A stretch of 64,000 nucleotides of DNA. It comes from an uncultured archaeon. Lineage in GTDB: Archaea; Thermoproteota; EX4484-205; JAAOZP01. The stretch is from positions 8,120-72,119 of the forward strand of contig CALIBN010000002.1 of NCBI GenBank assembly GCA_938045545.1, in the 5' to 3' direction. The position numbers and the translations under genes are program-made. Shown here in pieces: positions 1-9,224 of the stretch (the first letter of the stretch is position 1; every line of letters begins with the position of its first letter). The notes under the pieces are model-generated. The model made no database searches. It saw only the letters and a program-made list of their open reading frames with translations, and had not been told where the DNA came from.

Positions 1-1
1 C

Positions 2-94
2 GTAATAGATGCTTTTGGAAACGATCTGTACGAGGACCTTAGGAGAAGAGTAGGCGAAAACCTTTCGCGTGTTTTGAAAAGCATGGAGGAATAG
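2..94 (+). CDS. 3' end of an unidentified upstream gene (…IDAFGNDLYEDLRRRVGENLSRVLKSMEE*), partial at window edge
   Basis: Open frame from window start to TAG at 92-94, immediately upstream of next gene start; no recognisable motif. Confidence 0.3.
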   Translation, partial: VIDAFGNDLYEDLRRRVGENLSRVLKSMEE

Positions 95-98
95 AAAA

Positions 99-968
99 AT
101 GCATCCCGCTAAGCTTAAGGAATATGTTGTCGAAGCAATAAGGCTCTGTGAAACATCCCTGCCTTTGGATGTTAAAAACAGTTTGAAAGAAGCCTATGAG
201 CGTGAAGAAAGAGAGATTCGGAAGAAAATACTGGGTGCCCTCTTGAAGAATGTTGAAACCGCTGAAAAAGAAGGCAGGCCCATATGCCAAGATACTGGCA
301 CATTAACCTTTTATGTTAAGAGAGGAGGATGGAGGGAAAATGAACTGCAGAGAATAATTGTTGAGGCTGTTGTGGAGGCAAGTGGTAAAATACCTTTGAG
401 GCCGAACACAATAGATTTCCCCTCCAGAAGAAATCTAGAAGACAACACAGGGAGATTCGTCCCATGGATTGTCTGGGAGCAAGGTGGAGAAGATTTGGAG
501 ATAACGGTAGTGGCTAAGGGCGGAGGATCCGAGGCTGTTTCAAGCCTAAAAGTTTTGCCGGCCACTGCTGGAAGAAAGGAGATTTTTCAAACGGTTCTCG
601 AGAGCGTTGCAGAAGCTGGAGCCAAACCATGTCCCCCGATAATCCTTGGAGTCGGAATCGGCCCATCTTCAGAAATGGCTCTCGAGCTGGCTAAGAGAGC
701 TGTTTACTTAAGGCCCATTGGGGAGAGGCATATGAACGGCATTATTGCGAGGATGGAGGAGGACTTGCTGAGAATGGTTAACGAGCTTGACATAGGTATC
801 CACGGCTTCGGAGGTATATCGGCCTTAGATGTTCACATAGAATACGCTTCAATACACCCTTCATCCATGGTCGTTGGTGTTGTGGCAAGCTGCTGGGCTT
901 TGAGAAGAATCGTGTTGAAAGTTTCTGGAGAAACTGTAGAAATTAAAAACCATAGTTCACAATTCTAA
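99..968 (+). CDS. Fe-S hydro-lyase, class I fumarate hydratase / L(+)-tartrate dehydratase alpha subunit
   Basis: 289-aa ORF with PICQDTG motif and [18 protein letters not shown] region typical of the catalytic alpha subunit of two-subunit class I fumarases; no beta-subunit gene follows it. Confidence 0.75.
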
Positions 969-978
969 AACTGAAAAA

Positions 979-1374
979 TCATTTGCAACTCGTTACTTCC
1001 ATTCTCCTCGTACAGTAGTCTAAAGCGATCCTCATATTTTTTATTAGTTCTGTCCCTATGACTATTTCCTCAACCCCTTTTACGGTTTCTATGAAGCCGC
1101 TGAACTGGTTTTTAAGACTCGGTATAACTACCTCGCCGAATGTCCCAACGGACTGTATAGAGAGGGCATTGGCAAGAACGAGTTGTCTTTGCTCCGTGGA
1201 AAACTGGTCAAAAGAAAGCCCTTTGAAAACAGTCTCCGGTATGAGTAAGAATCCTTCAAACCCTGTGTCAAGCACGGCGATAACAGTGCCCTCGCTCGGA
1301 AAACTCTTGTTCATTACGGGATTCCTAATGATTATCTCCAGCACCGGAGTATCATCTAGAAAATAGGAATTCAT
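979..1374 (-). CDS. retropepsin-like (clan AA) aspartic protease, small archaeal type
   Basis: 131 aa; VLDTGFEGFLLIP contains D-T/S-G catalytic motif in a hydrophobic context typical of single-domain retropepsin-like proteases that dimerise. Confidence 0.55.
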   Translation of the reverse strand: MNSYFLDDTPVLEIIIRNPVMNKSFPSEGTVIAVLDTGFEGFLLIPETVFKGLSFDQFSTEQRQLVLANALSIQSVGTFGEVVIPSLKNQFSGFIETVKGVEEIVIGTELIKNMRIALDYCTRRMEVTSCK

Positions 1375-1382
1375 CTTCCCGG

Positions 1383-1727
1383 CTATGTGTGGCTGAGGGT
1401 TGGTCTCATTCTATACCCGCCGCGGACCACTGGCTTAATCGGCTTCGTCGACACTATTCTCAGGCCCCGCGGTTCAATGCCTCTGCTTTTTAAAATCGAC
1501 GCTAGCTCTTCTAGGGTACTGGCTTCCGCTACCACATTCCCCTCCCTAAGAGCTTTAAATACTGTTTTTTCGTAATCTGCGGATTTATCTAGGATCGCGA
1601 AATAATTCGTCAAAGCGTTTTCAATCACCTTTGACATTCCCCCTTTACTTGACCCGTATAAGCGTCTAACAATACTTCTAAGCTTCTTTTCAACATCGTC
1701 GTTAAGGGAGATCGTGATTGTGCCCAT
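1383..1727 (-). CDS. ribbon-helix-helix (CopG/Arc-like) small DNA-binding protein
   Basis: N-terminus MGTITISLNDDVEKKLRSIVRRL has beta-strand/helix pattern of RHH fold; 8 bp upstream of the aspartic protease gene on same strand. Confidence 0.45.
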   Translation of the reverse strand: MGTITISLNDDVEKKLRSIVRRLYGSSKGGMSKVIENALTNYFAILDKSADYEKTVFKALREGNVVAEASTLEELASILKSRGIEPRGLRIVSTKPIKPVVRGGYRMRPTLSHT

Positions 1728-1963
1728 ATTAATTTAATAGATATGTATGTCCTATTTAAACATTATTTCAAATCTCTGATTTTCCACAAATGATGCAAAA
1801 ACGAGCGTAAAAATAGACGAGCCACAGTATTTCACTGACATCTTAAAATAAGCAAAATCCTAATCCTTTAGTCTTCCGCTGAAAATGCTTTTATCAACTC
1901 TTTGTTTAAAAACATCGTGGAGAAAAGGATAAGATACATGGACAAGCTTGCTCATATAGATAG

Positions 1964-2314
1964 GAGGATGCTAATATAGAATCTTGGTTACCCTCCCAAG
2001 ATGAAGAGAGAACTTGATTAGCAATCTACAAGGCTTTTCAGGAGATAGTTGAAGCATTCTTTGACATGCTATCTATGAAACTCGACGAATTGAAAATACC
2101 CCCGAAGGACGATTATACTAACATTCTGTTAATTGAAGAAAAAGGATTAATCGATAAAGATACCTCCAGTATTCTAAGTGCAAACGGATTGAGAAATAGA
2201 CTTGTCTATAACTATAACAAAATATCAGACAAATTAGCGCTGGAATCGATAAAAACCCTCCTTCCCAAATTGGCTAAAATAAGGAAGGATTTAGAGTCAT
2301 GGACGAGTACATAG
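1964..2314 (+). pseudogene. HEPN/DUF86 (HepT-like) toxin-family gene, disrupted: in-frame TGA at 2015-2017, only ATG-initiated ORF is 2066-2314; catalytic His replaced (GLRNRLVYNY)
   Basis: C-terminal …ILSANGLRNRLVYNYNKISDKLALESIKTLLPKL matches DUF86 RNxLxHxY block except H->Y; upstream in-frame sequence LAIYKAFQEIVEAFFD resembles HEPN helix 2 but is separated by stop codons. Confidence 0.5.
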
Positions 2315-2522
2315 ACCTATACCAGTTATCCAGATTAAGGGTGTTTTAGCAATACTCCTATTCGGCTCTAAGGCGAAGGGAGAAACGATGATAAGAGATG
2401 CCGACGTTTGCATAGTTACACCAGAGGTTAACGATAAAGCAGGATTAATGCTAGACGTGTTCTTCAGGGTTAATAACCAGAAGTACGATATCTGGTTGTT
2501 TGAAGAACTTCACTCTATATGA
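2299..2522 (+). pseudogene. minimal nucleotidyltransferase (MNT/MntA-like antitoxin family), frameshifted
   Basis: ATG 2299 gives MDEYIDLYQLSRLRVF*; continuing in frame 0 gives …KGVLAILLFGSKAKGETMIRDADVCIV… (GS…DxD nucleotidyltransferase motif) to TGA 2520-2522; no start codon in the motif-bearing frame; overlaps HEPN stop. Confidence 0.5.
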
Positions 2523-2924
2523 AGGCTGAAATCATAAAGACCCACAAGGTAGTATGGTATAGAGATATAGACGAGCTTTATGACTATTTCGCTAACCTTA
2601 TGAAAATATGGAGAGACCAAGAAGTCAGAATTAGAACGTATATCAAAGAATTATAAAAGAGGCAGATCATAAATTGCTGGCCAACCGCTTAACGCATGAC
2701 GGAGGGAAATCAGGGTAGAAAAGAAAACTAAACACATTCTCATCGGAAACATCTTCTTCAAGTTGTAAACAGTAAAAAATGTTATTTATTTCTTAAGTAA
2801 TCTCTCCCACTAGCTCTGAGTCTTTCAATTTGGGATTTCTAGCCTTGTTCAAAGAGTCGATCGAATATACTGCAATCGTATTTAAATCGCTCACTTTAGA
2901 TTCAAGGTCTCAGCAACCATGTAG

Positions 2925-2996
2925 CGCGCACAAGCGGGAGTAAACGGGATTCATGCCGAGCAATTTCGGAATAAGCTGGCTCACGCTTACTGGTAA
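2925..2996 (+). pseudogene. fragment of a second HEPN/DUF86 gene (…EQFRNKLAHAYW*)
   Basis: Perfect RNxLAHxY HEPN motif at the 3' end of a frame otherwise full of stops; lies where the HEPN partner of the upstream MNT would be expected. Confidence 0.3.
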
Positions 2997-3046
2997 CTAA
3001 AGGATTGGAGTAAACTCGAAAATTCGTCCTTTCGAGCGCGTGAAGC

Positions 3047-3685
3047 CTATCTCCCAGTGGTCCAGATCCTCTGGAACTCCCTTTCGAGGGCCGTGGCCAG
3101 CTCCGCGCTTCGAATCACCAGCAAGTTCTCATTGTTATCTCGGTCTGCTGACGCAGTCCAATTGAAGCTGCCGATCAAGACTATGTGACCGTCGATTATC
3201 GCTACCTTGTGGTGCATGAGATTCGGGTTAGTGTCGTTCCTCACCTGGACTCCGGCTGCCTTCAGGCGGAAGTATTCGCTATACTTCGTAACTTGCTGCT
3301 CCTCGAACACGATCTTAACCTCTACCCCTCTTTGGTACGCAGCAAGAACCGCGTCGCCTATACTGTCGAGAGTGAAGCTATAGATCAGGACGTGGATGCT
3401 CAAGTTAGCCCTGTCCAGCCAGTGGATCAAGGTTGAAGCACATCCGCCCCTTGGAGAGAAGTAGACACCCAAGATTGAGACCTCAGGGACAGCTTCGGCA
3501 GCCTTCAGCGCTACTATCGTGGCGTTCAGCTCCTGAATCTCTTCATTCAGCCGCGAAATTTCGGCCTGAGCGGCACCTAGCTGAGACTGGAGGGAGCTGA
3601 TCTGAGATCCGGCGAGACCGAAGTATCCCAAGGCCACGCCGATTAGAAGCCCGCCAACGGCCAGCGCAATCACCTCATTTTTCAT
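3047..3685 (-). CDS. PLD-family (single HKD motif) nuclease, N-terminal membrane anchor plus coiled coil
   Basis: HHKVAIIDGHIVLIGSFNWT = HxK(x)4D(x)6GSxN motif; one copy only (Nuc/Zucchini-like dimeric nucleases); N-terminal hydrophobic helix ALAVGGLLIGVALGYFGLAG followed by heptad-like SSLQSQLGAAQAEISRLNEEIQELNATIVALKAAE. Confidence 0.7.
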   Translation of the reverse strand: MKNEVIALAVGGLLIGVALGYFGLAGSQISSLQSQLGAAQAEISRLNEEIQELNATIVALKAAEAVPEVSILGVYFSPRGGCASTLIHWLDRANLSIHVLIYSFTLDSIGDAVLAAYQRGVEVKIVFEEQQVTKYSEYFRLKAAGVQVRNDTNPNLMHHKVAIIDGHIVLIGSFNWTASADRDNNENLLVIRSAELATALEREFQRIWTTGR

Positions 3686-3920
3686 TTTCTACGTCATTTG
3701 AATTCCTAGAGATTTGGATTAATAAATCCTACTTAGATGGCAGCAAGGTAAACTCCTAATCCGAGTTACCGCACACAACAATAGCGCGCCTTTCTCCGAT
3801 TTTTCGTCCAATAATATTTGGTAAGAGGATTAGTTGAATCTCAAACCTCACTTTCCTTCTACAGCTTCTCTAGGATTCTATGATCTTCTCGCACGCTGAA
3901 GCAGGAAACAGTTTTAGAAT

Positions 3921-4811
3921 TTAGGTTTCAGATATTAGCTTCTTGATAAATTCCACGTCCTTTTTCAAAACAGTTTTTCTCTCTTCCCGACCATACTTTC
4001 CTAGAGACTCGTCTTCGATGGTTAAATCGCCAGCATACCCAGCTTTCCTCAAGACCTGAACGACCCTTTTCAAGTCAATATCTCCTTCGTACAGAGGTAC
4101 TGCAACCTGAGGAAAATCTATCCCAGGACGCCTCTGCTTTTCCCTCCTAGCTTCAGGATATTTTAAATTTTTAAGATGAGTATGTTTAACTAGTTTTGCA
4201 TACTTTTCTATGAGTTCATGAACCTTACTCAACGGATAACCATACCAATAGAAGTTTCCGGTGTCTAACGTCAAGCCTATTCTCTCATCATTCACCTCTT
4301 TAAAAGCATGGTCTAAAAATCGCTCATCGTTACTAACATAGCCGTGATTCTCTACAGCATAAGCTACGCTGCTGCCCCTCGTCTCTCTTAAAAGGGATTT
4401 CATTATTTTAACGAAGTGCTCAGCATACTCTTCAATTGGCTTCTCTCCCATTATTTGCATATGCGAGTTTATCCGTATCACTTCAACCCCGATTTCATCC
4501 GCAAGTTGTGTCGCCTTTTTAATATAATTCAGCTCCTCTTCCAGATTTTCACTTGAAAAATCATTTTCCAACAATATGGTGCACGGTTTTATACCCATAT
4601 TTTTAGAAAATTCTAAAAATTCTTTTCTTTCACGAGCGTCTCTCAGGTTAAAACCTAGCTTCACTATGTGGCCCATATCTTCATACGTGTCTTGAGTTAA
4701 TGTTTTGTTGACGTACATTTCATACCTATCTAAACCCAAGTCCTTTAAACCTTTAACGAGATCCTCGTAACCAACCCATACTACTGTGAAATCCCTTACT
4801 GAGACATACAT
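3921..4811 (-). CDS. sugar phosphate isomerase/epimerase (xylose isomerase-like TIM barrel) family protein
   Basis: 296 aa; ENHG…ND…LDTGNF pattern of AP-endonuclease-2/xylose-isomerase-like TIM barrels. Confidence 0.6.
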   Translation of the reverse strand: MYVSVRDFTVVWVGYEDLVKGLKDLGLDRYEMYVNKTLTQDTYEDMGHIVKLGFNLRDARERKEFLEFSKNMGIKPCTILLENDFSSENLEEELNYIKKATQLADEIGVEVIRINSHMQIMGEKPIEEYAEHFVKIMKSLLRETRGSSVAYAVENHGYVSNDERFLDHAFKEVNDERIGLTLDTGNFYWYGYPLSKVHELIEKYAKLVKHTHLKNLKYPEARREKQRRPGIDFPQVAVPLYEGDIDLKRVVQVLRKAGYAGDLTIEDESLGKYGREERKTVLKKDVEFIKKLISET

Positions 4812-4947
4812 TTGATCCTACAATAACAGGGATATTAATAAACTTATCAAGTGGCCAATATGCCAAATCTCATAAAGCCATGCATAGCGATCTATAGAAG
4901 CAGTGTGGAAGCTGATTTGAAAAACATATAGTTCAATTAGTACTCGG

Positions 4948-5463
4948 CTATTTTGATTTTAACCCATATTTTTCCCAATGCGTTATTTCTTCAAGCGGTC
5001 TCCTGTTTCTGCTGGGTTTCTCATCAGGATAGCCGACTGAAACAGTACATAGAACTCTAAGACCGTCAGGTATTCCTAGCAGCTTCCTTATAGGTTCTTC
5101 AAAGGAAGTGTTCAAAACGCCCATCCAGCATGTTCCTAGCCCCATAGAGTGGGCAGCGAGAAGGAAGTTTTGCACGGAAACCGCGACATCCCCGTGATAC
5201 CAGTTGCTGCTCCTCCCGGGGTCAGCTATGAAAACCACTACGACGGGGCTGTCAGCCATGAACCTTCCGTACCTATGTATCTCCGCAAGCTTCCTCCTAG
5301 TCTCAGGGTTCTTCACCACTAGAAACTCCCATGGCTGAGAATTGTTAGCTGAGGGAGCCCATCTGGCTGCTTCAAGACACTCCATTATCTTCTCGTCCTC
5401 CACAGGAGTCGACTTATACTTTCTAATGCTCCGCCTAGTTTTAATCGCCTCCATCACATCCAT
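4948..5463 (-). CDS. nitroreductase family protein
   Basis: AIKTRRSIRKY…APSANNSQPWEF signature of FMN nitroreductase fold. Confidence 0.75.
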   Translation of the reverse strand: MDVMEAIKTRRSIRKYKSTPVEDEKIMECLEAARWAPSANNSQPWEFLVVKNPETRRKLAEIHRYGRFMADSPVVVVFIADPGRSSNWYHGDVAVSVQNFLLAAHSMGLGTCWMGVLNTSFEEPIRKLLGIPDGLRVLCTVSVGYPDEKPSRNRRPLEEITHWEKYGLKSK

Positions 5464-5596
5464 CTTTAAACACCTAAGAAGATTTCATGAAACATCTTAA
5501 TATGGTTTACTATGATCTGGAAGACCCCTTTAACAACAGAATTCCAGAATTCGATTAGGGAAAGTAGCAAACGGGATTTGGAAAACTAGAAAGTTT

Positions 5597-6769
5597 TTAA
5601 GCCTTACTGGCTCCGGCTTCGAATACCCAGCTATCAAGGTTTTTACAAATTAATGTAAGGATCCGCATAGACTCCTCCGGTCTCATGGCGAGAAAAAGCG
5701 CGGCAACATGCTTGCAGAACTGTTTTTGACCAATTCTTTTAACCCAGTCCTCACAGTCATGCTTCAGCCTCCTGTTAGGAATATTTATGATGACAGCGTA
5801 TTCCTTAACCCTAGCTTTAACCTTCTCCTCTCCAGCCTCCTCAACAACCACTTTCCCAACCAGTTCCCTCGCCCTCTCCAGCCTACCCACCTCAAGGAAG
5901 GCTGAGACCAGTTTCTCAATGTCTTTTTCACCTGAAGAAAGCACTGCTTCAACCCTGCGAACCGTCCTCCTTAAACCCTGCTCTTCAAAGTAGTTTAGAA
6001 CCCTGTTCAAAGCCTCCTCCTGAGGCTTTTCCATGACTCCGACGATTCTCATCATTTGAAGCGCGTTCTTCACCGCATATCCCCTGAAGTGGTTGTTAAA
6101 ATAGACGTAAACCTTCTTAGCCTTGTACGAGAGCTCCTCAAGCTTTCCCTTCCACTCCTCAAGCTCCTCAATCCTGTAATCGTAATAGTACCAAGGCCTG
6201 TTCCCCCTGCCGTGAAACCTTACGTATGAAAAATCTCCCGTAACCTTCAACAATGCAGGCAGAAGAGGCTCGTCGACAATACAGTAACCCACATTGTTCT
6301 CGGACAGAACCCTGAAAGACTCATCCATCAGCCAAGTCGGATGCCTGAACTCGACAGTAAAATCGTAACCTTCAGGAAGGCTTTCTAAGAACTCTTTAAA
6401 GCCTTTGAAGGCTGCAACAGGCTTGGGTGGAAGCTGGAAAAGCAGTGGCCCAAGCTTCCCGTCTTCCTTGAGAGGAGCCAGCGCACTCAGGAAGAGCTTT
6501 AAATCCCTCAGAGCACCCTTCTCCAAATCCATTAGTTTCACGTGAGTCACTGTTTTAGGAACCTTAAGGGAAAATACGAAGCCTTTCGGCGAGGACCTGG
6601 CAATAGTACGTATGAATCCCAGGTTAGGCTGTTTATAGAAGGTTGAATCCACTTCAACCGTCTTGAAAACATCCGCATACTGCTGGAACATTTTCTCACT
6701 ACTTGTGTAGAACACAGTTAGCCAATCCTTATAGCTCCAGCCCGATGTCCCTACAACAATATTATCCAA
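5597..6769 (-). CDS. DUF72 (UPF0759) domain protein with C-terminal SWIM-like zinc-finger segment
   Basis: N-terminal VGTSGWSYKDW…FYTSS is the DUF72 signature; C-terminal …CEDWVKRIGQKQFCKHVAALFL resembles SWIM CxH-containing finger. Confidence 0.55.
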   Translation of the reverse strand: MDNIVVGTSGWSYKDWLTVFYTSSEKMFQQYADVFKTVEVDSTFYKQPNLGFIRTIARSSPKGFVFSLKVPKTVTHVKLMDLEKGALRDLKLFLSALAPLKEDGKLGPLLFQLPPKPVAAFKGFKEFLESLPEGYDFTVEFRHPTWLMDESFRVLSENNVGYCIVDEPLLPALLKVTGDFSYVRFHGRGNRPWYYYDYRIEELEEWKGKLEELSYKAKKVYVYFNNHFRGYAVKNALQMMRIVGVMEKPQEEALNRVLNYFEEQGLRRTVRRVEAVLSSGEKDIEKLVSAFLEVGRLERARELVGKVVVEEAGEEKVKARVKEYAVIINIPNRRLKHDCEDWVKRIGQKQFCKHVAALFLAMRPEESMRILTLICKNLDSWVFEAGASKA

Positions 6770-7245
6770 CCCTTTAGAACATCTACTCTACGGGTGATAA
6801 ACTTTTAGTTGAATCTGACACTCCTATGACTAAAGCCAACTGGATTCCCGTCGTCGCCCTCGGGCCCACCATACCGGGTAAAGTGCTTTATGGAAAACGT
6901 ATACCGCGCGCTTTTCTTAGGTTACTTCTACTATAAGGCAGGCAGGAACCTTTTAGAACCTGTGACTACCATTTCAGCAACTTGTTCTTTAACATACCGT
7001 ATGTATGGATGTAGCCGGCGGCAGTATCCTTTAGAATCCATCCTTTTTTCCGGAATTCGCGTGCACTGGTTTTCCCAATGGACTCTGAAACCCCATATTT
7101 AAATCCAGATACTGATCCTTAGAAAGATTCGTTTAAACAAGCTAACCACATAGAGCAATTTAGAAGATTAGTATCAACCTCGTCTGCAATCTATCTAAAA
7201 TGTTATATAATCTGTTGTAAGCTTCTAAAAAGGTAGGGGTATTTA

Positions 7246-8076
7246 ATGGCTCTCGGAGAAAAAGTTATAGCTTTGCAACTGCTTAAAAAAAGGTTAGGGA
7301 TGCTCTGGGAATATTTAACAAGCCCCGATATAAAGGAAGTGGCTGAGAAGAAACTCGTCGCGATTCTCCCAGTAGGCTCGGTCGAGATACATGGACCCCA
7401 CATGCCGACTGGAACAGACTCCATAACTATTCGCGAGATAACTAGAATGGCCGCTGAAAAGGAGCCTGCAGTAGTTTTGCCTACGCTATACTATGTTTAT
7501 GTGCCTGAGAACCGGCATTTTCCTGGAACCATATCGCTAAGCGCTAGGACAATCCTTACTATTCTTGAGGAAATATGCGACGAGGTGGCGAGAAACGGTT
7601 TTAAAAAAATCCTTATTGTAAACGGTCATGGAGGAAACAATAATCTTCTAAGGGTTTTCCTGAGGGAAAGCCTGCATAAGAAGAAGGATTATACTATTTA
7701 CGCGTTAATTGAGCCCTGGTCATCAATAGAAGAGATTGCTGAGAAAATATGCGAGAGCAAGATAACTGGGCATGCTTGCGAGCGTGAAACCAGCATGGGG
7801 CTATACTTGTTTGAAAACCTGATTAAGATGGAGAATGTTAAGCATGAGGCGGAGATAGGAGGTACGAATCTGCCTGGAGTAGAGACGCCTGCCGACTGGC
7901 AGGCCTACGCGGTCCAGCTTTATCTCGGTGACCCTAGGCTGGCAACTAAGGAGAAGGGCAGAATCATGGTTGAAAAGCTTGTTGATTACGTGGCAGATGC
8001 TATAAGAAGGGTTAAGCAGGATGAGAGGGTTCCAGCGATACTCGACGATTTCTACAGGAAGGCCTACGGGCAGTAG
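7246..8076 (+). CDS. creatininase-family amidohydrolase (ArfB/creatinine amidohydrolase family)
   Basis: VAILPVGSVEIHGPHMPTGTD and IVNGHGGN metal-binding motifs of creatininase fold. Confidence 0.75.
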   Translation: MALGEKVIALQLLKKRLGMLWEYLTSPDIKEVAEKKLVAILPVGSVEIHGPHMPTGTDSITIREITRMAAEKEPAVVLPTLYYVYVPENRHFPGTISLSARTILTILEEICDEVARNGFKKILIVNGHGGNNNLLRVFLRESLHKKKDYTIYALIEPWSSIEEIAEKICESKITGHACERETSMGLYLFENLIKMENVKHEAEIGGTNLPGVETPADWQAYAVQLYLGDPRLATKEKGRIMVEKLVDYVADAIRRVKQDERVPAILDDFYRKAYGQ

Positions 8077-8102
8077 TGAATGCCAGCATGGAAAGCAGCA
8101 TG

Positions 8103-9224
8103 CTAAAACCAGTCTGAGTGCCAGATATGGGGATTTCCTGGTGGAAACAATGTTTCTAAAGTTTTCTCAACCTTCCCCTCATGCTTCACGGCTTGGTCGA
8201 CTAAGACGTTCTTCGGATCCCTATATCCAAGAATGAGTTGCATCAACACCCATTGCGGGAGCTCAACCCAGTTCGCCGACAAGGTTTCTGAAAGAGACAC
8301 CCCGGATTCGGAAACTTCGAGAGTAGCAATGCCTATGTCGGTTTTAAAAGATATTTGCGAAGCCAGATCCTTCACACACGCTTTTTCCAAACGGTCCTCA
8401 AATACTGAAACAAGCTTCTCGAAGGTCGACTTGAGATTAATGATTCTCCCCATGCCGTCTGAAGCATATGGATAGTCGATGCTAATCGTGCAGCCGAGGC
8501 TTTTACAAAGCTCGGCGAAAGGATGGTCAAACGGGACGTATATTTCAAGCTCACTAGCCTTCTTCTGGAAAGCAGTGCCGCACGCGTAGCGGAGCACATG
8601 CTCATACAGGGCAGCGTCTACAGCACCCACCTCAGTTATCCTCATTACCCTCGGCCAACGGTCAGAAGCACAATAGGCAACTATCCTTCCAGACTCATCT
8701 TCGAAGACTGTTCCGTCAGCAGGTACTCCCCACCAGCTTCCCTTTCTAAATCTGAACCATTCACCCCTATATCTTTTAAGGGGGCCCGTCCTATGCTCGT
8801 TAGCCAACTCGTAAATGTCCAAGATAGCTTCAGCATCGTCCTTCACCATCGGGCGGGCTTTAAGCCCAGGCCTAGCCCTCTCAGCATTTCTTAAAGGCAT
8901 GGTTATCTTGCAATTGGGAAGCGTTGAAGCATAACCCCATCTAATATAATAGTCAGGTATGCCGAACAACATTGAAACATCATATTCGTTTCTAACCATG
9001 TATTCGATAGAAAACTCCATAACCTTTCTAGAATATCCTTTCATCCTGTGTTCCTCGAGCGTTCCAACTCCACCTACTCCGCCCATTTTCAGGAAGGTTT
9101 TCCCAACTTTTACTTCAAGATCATTGATGATGAGCCAGCTAACCGGCGACCCTCCCAGCTCATCCAGAAGAAGCTCAACTCTATGGGATCTTGCCGAGTC
9201 AGTAACCCTTATCTCGCTTCCCAT
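8103..9224 (-). CDS. GNAT-family N-acetyltransferase, Eis-like three-domain architecture
   Basis: 373 aa, N-terminal acetyl-CoA motif region (…HRMKGYSRKVMEFSIEYM…) followed by long C-terminal extension as in Eis/SCP2-containing GNATs. Confidence 0.45.
   Translation of the reverse strand: MGSEIRVTDSARSHRVELLLDELGGSPVSWLIINDLEVKVGKTFLKMGGVGGVGTLEEHRMKGYSRKVMEFSIEYMVRNEYDVSMLFGIPDYYIRWGYASTLPNCKITMPLRNAERARPGLKARPMVKDDAEAILDIYELANEHRTGPLKRYRGEWFRFRKGSWWGVPADGTVFEDESGRIVAYCASDRWPRVMRITEVGAVDAALYEHVLRYACGTAFQKKASELEIYVPFDHPFAELCKSLGCTISIDYPYASDGMGRIINLKSTFEKLVSVFEDRLEKACVKDLASQISFKTDIGIATLEVSESGVSLSETLSANWVELPQWVLMQLILGYRDPKNVLVDQAVKHEGKVEKTLETLFPPGNPHIWHSDWF

What the first reader, a model, noticed from the sequence alone, without database searches (positions are those of the whole stretch)
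1728..3046. Eroded HEPN/MNT toxin-antitoxin cluster in unusual order
Three remnants of RNA-targeting HEPN/MNT toxin-antitoxin modules are present. (1) A HEPN/DUF86 gene has in-frame TAG and TGA stops in its 5' part, and its Rx4-6H catalytic His is replaced by Tyr (RNRLVYNY). (2) An MNT gene overlaps its stop and is split by a single frameshift between MDEYIDLYQLSRL and KGVLAILLFGSKAKGE. (3) About 400 bp downstream there is an isolated perfect HEPN motif (EQFRNKLAHAYW*). The HEPN-then-MNT order is opposite to the common MNT-then-HEPN operon. Either two pairs have collapsed, or the locus is mid-way through pseudogenisation, with the toxin inactivated first and the antitoxin afterwards. The frameshift lies in a G/T run (AAGGGTGTTTTAG) and could alternatively be an assembly error.
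Basis: seen in the sequence. Interest (0 to 1): 0.55.

Follow-up and report, generated by a model that had tools for sequence, protein, structure and literature searches.

The report
Decayed archaeal HepT/MntA toxin-antitoxin pair
This is a dead copy of a common two-gene toxin-antitoxin module (an RNA-cutting HEPN toxin and its nucleotidyltransferase antidote) in a Brockarchaeota genome; the toxin was disabled first and the antidote later, and the toxin-first gene order is normal for this archaeal branch of the family, so the locus is ordinary.

Summary
Window 1917-2656 (+) holds two overlapping pseudogenes: a HepT-like HEPN RNase and an MntA-like minimal nucleotidyltransferase. A syntenic Brockarchaeota locus (L003, 96% identical) carries both genes intact (133 and 119 aa).

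Lesions in the window:
- hepT: 1-bp deletion after 1970, CGA>TGA at 2015, 3-bp deletion after 2175, catalytic His>Tyr at 2207.

None lies in a homopolymer. An independent assembler gives the same sequence, so assembly error is unlikely.

A sister strain from another sample (L052) shares His>Tyr, has its own hepT frameshift, and keeps mnt intact.

The "unusual" HEPN-then-MNT order is not erosion. In 45 of 46 informative loci of this clade, across many archaeal phyla, hepT directly precedes mnt, typically with a 16-nt overlap.

The third "remnant" (2958-2996) is only a short motif in a non-coding spacer. It varies among close relatives, has no detectable parent gene and is unsupported as a HEPN relic.

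Verdict: an ordinary, recently decayed member of a known TA kind.

The parts
1917..2314 (+). hepT pseudogene (HEPN/DUF86 RNase toxin). The start is GTG 1917, or more likely ATG 1938. The stop is TAG 2312-2314.
   Evidence: PF01934 E 5.5e-15. 84% identity to intact P0001. Alignments to intact syntenic genes in L003 and L002. The family profile matches solved HepT toxins 5yep and 7ae9 over their full length.
1968..1973 (+). hepT lesion 1: 1-bp deletion (ATGGCT>ATGCT, a G lost after 1970). It shifts the frame and creates a premature TAG at 1977-1979.
   Evidence: Alignments A3 and A4 against L003, L002, L006 and L052, all of which keep the G. Sequence checked.
2015..2017 (+). hepT lesion 2: nonsense codon TGA, which is CGA (Arg34) in relatives.
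2170..2182 (+). hepT lesion 3: in-frame 3-bp deletion after 2175 (ILRSANGL>IL-SANGL), which removes a conserved Arg.
2207..2209 (+). hepT lesion 4: the catalytic His99 of RX4HXY is changed to Tyr (CAT>TAT). The change is shared with sister contig L052.
   Evidence: His is present in all 22 aligned homologues. RX4HXY is present in 45 of 50 clade loci. The shared T is seen in L052.
2299..2656 (+). mntA-like pseudogene (minimal nucleotidyltransferase antitoxin). It overlaps hepT by 16 nt and still encodes the G-S-X9-D-X-D residues.
   Evidence: Polbeta 28.3 bits and NTP_transf_2 26.3 bits, both above their cut-offs. 90% identity over 100% of intact P0071. Alignment A2.
2326..2338 (+). mnt lesion 1: 1-bp deletion (TCCGAGATT>TCCAGATT, a G lost between 2331 and 2332).
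2505..2516 (+). mnt lesion 2: 1-bp deletion (CTTCCACTC>CTTCACTC). It destroys the near-invariant Pro of the WLFEELP motif and shifts the frame.
2558..2560 (+). mnt lesion 3: near-invariant Cys88 changed to Tyr (TGT>TAT). Five further window-only amino-acid changes lie between 2385 and 2464.
2958..2996 (+). HEPN-like motif EQFRNKLAHAYW* inside the 390-bp non-coding spacer 2657-3046. It is probably not part of the module and is listed only because the finding names it.
   Evidence: Weak 16-residue Pfam match only (E 0.13; nothing). The motif residues vary among close relatives and no ORF exists in any of them. No homologue was found.

Best explanation
The locus is a recently pseudogenised two-gene HepT/MntA-type (type VII, Class I HEPN/MNT) toxin-antitoxin module in a Brockarchaeota chromosome.

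How the intact module looks. In the intact relatives, hepT (126-133 aa, motif RNRLVHNY) directly precedes mnt (119 aa, GSX9DXD) and overlaps it by 16 nt.

How it probably works (inferred). This rests on homology to the characterised Shewanella oneidensis, Aphanizomenon flos-aquae and Thermococcus cleftensis systems. The HEPN protein would be an RNase that uses the Arg and His of RX4H. The nucleotidyltransferase would neutralise it by AMPylating the Tyr two residues after the His (Tyr101 here). The overlap would couple translation of the antitoxin to that of the toxin.

How it decayed in the window's lineage (shown by comparison).
1. The catalytic His99 became Tyr. The sister strain L052 shares this change.
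2. hepT then picked up frame-breaking lesions independently in the two sister lineages.
3. In the window's lineage only, the now useless antitoxin gene picked up two 1-bp deletions and six amino-acid changes, including one at a near-invariant Cys.

Neither gene can now make a full-length protein. The toxin-first order is the ancestral, conserved arrangement of this archaeal clade.
For: Family assignment:
- Pfam.
- Intact homologues at 84% and 90% identity.
- NCBIfam HepT_toxin and MntA_antitoxin are the only hits for the intact relatives (E 7e-15 and 9e-10).
- The HepT profile aligns end to end with solved HepT toxins 5yep, 6m6u and 7ae9 (E 5e-9).

Intact syntenic copies:
- L003 matches window 1817-8325 at 96.4% identity. 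L002 and L054 match at about 90%.

Lesions:
- Mapped base by base.

Order of events:
- L052 (run SRR24425660) is 97.0% identical to the window, against 94.7% for L003.
- L052 shares TAT at codon 99, lacks every other window lesion, and has its own hepT 1-bp deletion and R94K. Its mnt is an intact 119-aa gene.

Selection:
- dN/dS between intact copies is 0.13-0.18. For window mnt against L003 it is 0.97.

Toxin-first decay is general in the clade:
- hepT is split in 6 of 50 other loci. mnt is uninterrupted wherever it can be assessed, and apart from the window no locus has a split mnt.

Gene order:
- 45 of 50 loci have mnt immediately downstream.

Mechanism:
- RX4HXY, GSX10DXD and AMPylation are described in PMC7641770.
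Against: - No raw reads were available. The window-only lesions rest on one sample, although two assemblers agree.
- The sister relationship of the window and L052 has only 3 parsimony-informative sites in its favour, against 1-2 for conflicting splits. Convergent His>Tyr is therefore not excluded. L048 shows an independent His>Tyr.
- The intact relatives score below the NCBIfam equivalog cut-offs (54.9 and 38.4 bits against 60).
- The MNT profile finds no solved structure by sequence.
- For these reasons the AMPylation mechanism is inferred, not shown, for this subfamily.
Confidence: 0.88

Rival explanations
1. The frameshifts and the stop codon are sequencing or assembly errors, and the strain really carries an active, toxin-first pair with a His-less HEPN.
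For: - All window-only lesions come from a single sample.
- Three of them are single-base deletions, a typical error class.
- No reads could be inspected.
Against: - There are seven separate lesions in 740 bp: three 1-bp deletions, one 3-bp deletion, one nonsense codon and two changes at invariant residues. Six further mnt amino-acid changes give a dN/dS of about 1.
- None of the deletions is in a run longer than two bases.
- The Logan assembly of ERR9287632 is 100% identical over window 1-3740.
- The flanking genes are intact.
- His>Tyr recurs in a second run, whose hepT is also broken.
Confidence: 0.04
2. The locus is the collapsed remainder of two HEPN/MNT pairs, or of a multi-HEPN cluster, and the motif at 2958-2996 is the last piece of a second HEPN gene.
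For: - The motif is the only RN..[LIVMA]H.[YF] match in the window, against 0.23 expected. A stricter pattern gave no match in 100 shuffles.
- It sits about 300 bp from a HEPN/MNT module, in an unusually long (390-bp) spacer between convergent genes.
- Clusters of several MNT and HEPN genes are known in crenarchaea (PMC3710099).
Against: - Only 16 residues match HepT-like (12.4 bits, E 0.13). Nothing is found when whole frames are scanned.
- All six related sequences lack an ORF here. The key His reads His, His, Arg, Tyr, Arg, Arg, and the stop codons differ among them.
- L006 and L004 diverge from the window at about 2757-2785, so the motif belongs to the PLD-bearing segment and not to the TA module.
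- More distant PLD loci have no HEPN or MNT neighbour.
- No protein among 5.8 billion shares even three 5-residue words with the conceptual translation.
Confidence: 0.15
3. The His>Tyr HepT was not simply dead. It was kept for a time, with its MNT, as a non-catalytic partner (a 'domesticated' HEPN serving as a regulatory or substrate-binding subunit) before the whole module was lost.
For: - In the changes shared by the window and L052, 7 of 9 are synonymous. The rest of the module was therefore still constrained around the time His>Tyr arose.
- Other clade members have full-length ORFs with altered catalytic residues next to intact MNTs: L010 and L047 have Arg>His, and L048 has His>Tyr.
- Inactive HEPN domains recruited as MNT partners are discussed in PMC3710099.
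Against: - Both descendants of the His>Tyr allele broke the hepT frame independently and soon afterwards. L052 also lost the catalytic Arg (R94K). That is what neutral decay predicts, not retention.
- The counts are too small to measure selection on the shared branch.
Confidence: 0.08
4. The interrupted genes are expressed through programmed recoding (frameshifting or stop-codon read-through).
For: None beyond the presence of frameshifts and a TGA.
Against: - The lesions are specific to this lineage and absent from relatives that are 94-97% identical.
- There is no slippery heptamer at any lesion site.
- Four separate recoding events would be needed in two small genes.
- The catalytic His is lost anyway.
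Confidence: 0.01

Closest known systems
[quoted passage not shown]
   Same: - A small HEPN (PF01934) protein with the RX4HXY motif sits next to a small minimal nucleotidyltransferase that carries the G-S...D-x-D motif.
- The two genes are co-directional and overlap.
- The HepT profile aligns over the full length with the solved toxins.
- NCBIfam HepT_toxin and MntA_antitoxin are the only hits for the intact relatives.
   Different: - Gene order is toxin first. In the characterised systems the MNT is upstream.
- The Brockarchaeota MNT has GSX9DXD rather than GSX10DXD.
- Scores are below the NCBIfam equivalog cut-offs, and the MNT has no sequence match in the PDB.
- In the window itself both genes are pseudogenes and the catalytic His is Tyr.
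COG2445 (YutE/UPF0331, DUF86) HEPN paired with COG1708 MNT, predicted as a TA pair by Makarova et al. 2009 (PMC2701414)
   Same: - JGI names the closest homologues 'YutE (UPF0331/DUF86 family)'.
- It is the same predicted two-gene mobile module.
   Different: - That work does not describe a fixed toxin-first order.
- Here the module has stayed at one chromosomal site next to the fumarase genes across Brockarchaeota relatives whose synonymous sites are saturated.
Toxin-first TA families (HigBA, HicAB, MqsRA)
   Same: The toxin gene lies 5' of the antitoxin gene. This arrangement is recognised as atypical but established (PMC6929052).
   Different: The proteins are unrelated, and those antitoxins are DNA-binding proteins rather than modifying enzymes.

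Membership tests
Type VII HepT/MntA (Class I HEPN/MNT) toxin-antitoxin | Toxin is a HEPN protein of the DUF86/HepT-like family (PF01934) | tested here: met
   Reconstructed window product: E 5.5e-15, 55.6 bits against a cut-off of 23.5. The clade profile matches solved HepT 5yep and 7ae9 over the full length.
Type VII HepT/MntA (Class I HEPN/MNT) toxin-antitoxin | RX4HXY motif in the toxin (catalytic Arg and His, AMPylated Tyr) | tested here: not met
   The window reads RNRLVYNY: His99 is Tyr, while Arg94 and Tyr101 are kept. Intact relatives read RNRLVHNY. The motif is present in 45 of 50 clade loci.
Type VII HepT/MntA (Class I HEPN/MNT) toxin-antitoxin | Antitoxin is a minimal nucleotidyltransferase with GSX10DXD | tested here: inconclusive
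   Polbeta and NTP_transf_2 are above their cut-offs. The residues G23-S24...D34-x-D36 are present, but the spacer is 9 residues in the Brockarchaeota sequences and 10 in more distant clade members. NCBIfam MntA_antitoxin gives E 8.7e-10 but 38.4 bits, below the cut-off of 60.
Type VII HepT/MntA (Class I HEPN/MNT) toxin-antitoxin | Two adjacent, co-directional small genes forming one operon | tested here: met
   Same strand with a 16-nt overlap in the window (2299-2314) and in most of the 45 paired loci.
Type VII HepT/MntA (Class I HEPN/MNT) toxin-antitoxin | Usual arrangement: MNT in the 5' position ('almost always', PMC3710099) | tested here: not met
   hepT is 5' of mnt in the window and in 45 of 46 informative clade loci. 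No locus has MNT upstream. This is a usual feature, not a strictly defining one.
Type VII HepT/MntA (Class I HEPN/MNT) toxin-antitoxin | Both reading frames intact (a functional member) | tested here: not met
   hepT has one frameshift, one nonsense codon and one 3-bp deletion. mnt has two frameshifts.
Type VII HepT/MntA (Class I HEPN/MNT) toxin-antitoxin | RNase toxicity of HepT and its neutralisation through AMPylation by MntA | not testable with these tools
   Inferred only from homology to the systems studied in PMC7641770.
HEPN domain (for the third motif at 2958-2996) | Significant profile match beyond the Rx4-6H motif, or an intact homologue at the same position in relatives | tested here: not met
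   E 0.13 over 16 residues, and no hit on whole frames. There is no ORF in six related sequences and the motif residues vary. No homologue was found.

The most novel reading that the evidence does not exclude
The window's dead pair may belong to an undescribed variant of type VII HepT/MntA. This variant spans many archaeal phyla: Brockarchaeota, Methanosarcinales/ANME, Archaeoglobi, Thermoplasmata, DPANN groups and Asgard lineages. In it the toxin gene is always first and overlaps the antitoxin start, typically by 16 nt. Antitoxin supply would then be set by translational coupling to the toxin rather than by antitoxin-first expression. The toxin is also repeatedly the first partner to be lost: 6 other loci have a split hepT, about 5 have substitutions in the catalytic motif, and none has a broken mnt with an intact hepT. 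If so, the clade would be a natural series for studying how an enzyme-antitoxin TA module is regulated and dismantled.
Probability: 0.4. Interest if true: 0.35.

Novelty: new member of a known kind. Interest (0 to 1): 0.2.

Why it matters
For this window it matters little. The locus is a non-functional remnant of a very common archaeal toxin-antitoxin type and should be annotated as two pseudogenes.

Two modest points have wider use.
- The comparison of four closely related Brockarchaeota sequences (window, L052, L003, L002) gives an unusually clean, stepwise record of TA decay: a catalytic-site hit, then toxin frameshifts, then antitoxin frameshifts. This fits the expectation that an antitoxin can be lost only after its toxin is disarmed.
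- The HEPN-then-MNT order that looked anomalous is the rule for a broad archaeal HepT clade. Gene order should therefore not be used as a sign of rearrangement in this family.

Tried and rejected
1. Paralogues in the window. I scanned all six frames with HMMs built from the intact HepT and MNT homologues. No other copy exists in the 64 kb.
2. Exact-product look-ups of the fragment ORFs, to find the lesions in other samples. The 114-aa neighbour, P0014, the 44-aa ORF and the 82-aa ORF are not on record. Only the PLD look-up gave a contig (L001).
3. Origin of the third motif.
 - Pfam on all six frames of 2657-3060 gave nothing relevant.
 - Rfam on 1-8000 gave nothing relevant.
 - A metagenome scan with the neighbouring PLD protein returned 20 loci. 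Close relatives carry the same ORF-less spacer, and distant ones have unrelated neighbours.
 - tblastn of the gene that occupies this position in L006 and L004 found no trace in the window.
 - A search of 5.8 billion proteins with the stop-corrected translation found no candidate.
4. Programmed recoding or an alternative genetic code. Rejected because the lesions are lineage-specific and the neighbouring genes read normally under table 11.
5. PADLOC gave no hit for the intact HepT or MNT.
6. Literature on a toxin-first HEPN/MNT order. I found no statement beyond 'MNT almost always 5''.
7. Structure prediction was not run. The sequence-level matches to solved HepT structures were sufficient.

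Full report
**What is in the sequence.**
The + strand of window 1917-2656 reads as two overlapping small genes broken by several lesions. When the pieces are joined, the first product matches Pfam HepT-like PF01934 (E 5.5e-15, 55.6 bits, cut-off 23.5). The second passes the cut-offs of the Polbeta and NTP_transf_2 nucleotidyltransferase families. Database searches found intact homologues: a 133-aa DUF86 protein at 84% identity and a 119-aa nucleotidyltransferase at 90% identity over its full length. Both come from Candidatus Brockarchaeota MAGs. The window therefore comes from a Brockarchaeota archaeon. Observations (1) and (2) of the finding are real and far beyond chance.

**Exact lesions.**
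A genome scan with the HepT alignment returned syntenic loci.
- L003 (Brockarchaeota GD2_1) is 96.4% identical to window 1817-8325 and carries both genes intact.
- L002 and L054 are about 90% identical and also intact.
- L006 (QC4_43) is 93% identical over window 1-2757.

Base-by-base alignment (coordinates checked) shows these lesions in hepT:
- a G lost after 1970 (ATGGCT>ATGCT);
- CGA>TGA at 2015-2017;
- V57D at 2085;
- a 3-bp deletion after 2175 that removes a conserved Arg;
- CAT>TAT at 2207-2209, which turns the catalytic His of RNRLVHNY into Tyr.

The lesions in mnt are:
- a G lost between 2331 and 2332 (TCCGAGATT>TCCAGATT);
- a C lost at 2510/2511 (CTTCCACTC>CTTCACTC);
- Cys88>Tyr at 2559;
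- five more amino-acid changes.

None of the deletions lies in a run longer than two bases.

**Are the lesions real?**
No reads were available. A Logan assembly of run ERR9287632, made with a different assembler, is 100% identical to window 1-3740. Contig L052 from a different run (SRR24425660) shows the same His>Tyr codon. Seven separate lesions in 740 bp, next to intact flanking genes, together with a dN/dS of 0.97 for mnt against L003, argue for genuine decay. Intact copies give dN/dS of 0.13-0.18. I put the artefact explanation at about 4%.

**Order of events.**
L052 is the window's closest relative: 97.0% identity against 94.7% to L003. It shares His99Tyr and lacks every other window lesion. 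It has its own hepT 1-bp deletion and a change of the catalytic Arg (R94K). Its mnt is an intact 119-aa gene.

The most parsimonious history has three steps:
1. the catalytic His was lost;
2. hepT frame lesions arose independently in each lineage;
3. mnt decayed in the window's lineage only.

One caveat applies. Only three parsimony-informative sites support the window-L052 split, against one to two for conflicting splits. An independent His>Tyr also exists in L048, so convergence is not excluded.

The same direction of decay appears across the clade. hepT is split in L006, L031 (TGA), L043, L045, L050 and L051. mnt is uninterrupted wherever it can be assessed, and apart from the window no locus has a split mnt.

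**Gene order.**
[quoted passage not shown] The experimentally studied pairs have the MNT upstream (PMC7641770). I scanned the 50 loci of this HepT clade with HMMs of both partners.
- mnt lies immediately downstream of hepT on the same strand in 45 loci.
- Four of the other five are cut by a contig end within about 110 nt.
- No locus has an upstream MNT.
- The typical overlap is the same 16 nt as in the window.

The loci come from Brockarchaeota, Methanosarcinales/ANME, Archaeoglobi, Thermoplasmata, DPANN groups and Asgard lineages. The order is therefore the conserved ancestral state of this clade. It is not evidence of collapse or rearrangement.

**Family and likely mechanism.**
The clade's HepT profile aligns end to end with the solved HepT toxins of Shewanella oneidensis (5yep, 6m6u) and Aphanizomenon flos-aquae (7ae2-7ae9), with E about 5e-9. 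GLRNrLVHsY aligns on GLRNIAVHDY. NCBIfam gives HepT_toxin and MntA_antitoxin as the only hits for the intact relatives, both below the equivalog cut-offs (54.9 and 38.4 bits against 60). The MNT profile has no sequence match in the PDB. The Brockarchaeota MNT has GSX9DXD rather than GSX10DXD.

I infer, but have not shown, three things for the intact module:
- HepT cleaves RNA through Arg94 and His99;
- the MNT neutralises HepT by AMPylating Tyr101, as demonstrated for the characterised systems;
- the 16-nt overlap couples antitoxin translation to toxin translation.

In the window none of this can operate.

**The third 'remnant'.**
EQFRNKLAHAYW* is at 2958-2996. It is the only match to a HEPN-type pattern in the six frames of the window, where 0.23 are expected. 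That is its only support.
- The Pfam match covers 16 residues at E 0.13 and disappears when whole frames are scanned.
- The surrounding 390-bp spacer is conserved as DNA in L003, L002, L052, L053 and L054. None has an ORF there. The 'His' reads His, Arg or Tyr, and the stop codons differ.
- L006 and L004 diverge from the window at about 2757-2785, where they carry an unrelated 277-281-aa gene. The motif therefore belongs to the PLD-bearing segment, not to the TA module.
- More distant PLD loci have no HEPN or MNT neighbour.
- No protein among 5.8 billion shares even three 5-residue words with the stop-corrected translation.

I rate a true HEPN relic at about 15%. The 'two collapsed pairs' reading is unsupported.

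**Verdict.**
The finding is a correctly spotted but ordinary object: a recently pseudogenised member of the very common HepT/MntA toxin-antitoxin kind. The apparent oddities are explained. The order is the clade's norm and the third motif is unsupported. Interest is low (0.2). The only mildly novel aspect is that a broad archaeal HepT/MntA clade has a fixed toxin-first, overlapping arrangement and repeatedly loses the toxin first.

Noticed in passing
window 924-1816 (genes 979-1374 and 1383-1727, minus strand): A two-gene cassette sits between the fumarase gene and hepT. One gene encodes a 131-aa clan AA 'DTGF' aspartic protease (TIGR03698, 70.5 bits, above its cut-off). The other encodes a 114-aa protein with what looks to me like a ribbon-helix-helix N-terminus and no family hit. 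The cassette is at this spot in the window and L006, and probably in L052, whose upstream sequence matches the window's. It is absent there in L002, L003 and L054, where 21 nt take its place, and it lies elsewhere in L004. It may be a mobile module. All three lineages that carry it next to hepT have a broken hepT, and all four that lack it have an intact one. There are too few independent events to tell whether the two are linked.
   Followed up: partly
window about 2757-4950, compared with L006 about 6865-7880 and L004: The segment between mnt and the nitroreductase gene varies among close relatives. The window, L002, L003, L052, L053 and L054 carry a membrane-anchored PLD/NucT-like nuclease (3047-3685). 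Where their contigs extend far enough, they also carry a sugar-phosphate isomerase-like TIM-barrel gene (3921-4811). L006 and L004 instead carry one unrelated 277-281-aa gene. This is a local hotspot of gene replacement.
   Followed up: partly
L002-L051 (50 genome loci of the HepT clade): The toxin-first order, typically with a 16-nt overlap between hepT and mnt, is conserved across many archaeal phyla. The papers I read state the opposite order as the general rule for HEPN/MNT. I found no description of this clade's arrangement.
   Followed up: partly
L006, L031, L043, L045, L050, L051 (split hepT); L010, L047, L048, L049 (altered motif): Loss of the toxin recurs in other lineages. Six loci have frameshifted or nonsense hepT genes. 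Further hepT ORFs without frame lesions have Arg>His (L010, L047) or His>Tyr (L048) in the catalytic motif, and L049 has lost the motif Arg and has no MNT. Where the mnt gene can be assessed it is uninterrupted.
   Followed up: partly
window 1905-1912 relative to ATG 1938: A TATA-like TTTAAAAA lies about 30 nt upstream of the internal ATG at 1938. Several database homologues start at the equivalent Met (126-aa forms). The true hepT start may therefore be ATG 1938 on a near-leaderless mRNA rather than GTG 1917. This is an inference from general archaeal promoter geometry only.
   Followed up: no
window 3740 (end of Logan contig L001): The independent Logan assembly of ERR9287632 breaks at window position 3740, just upstream of the PLD gene, while the window continues. 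This may reflect strain heterogeneity at that point.
   Followed up: no
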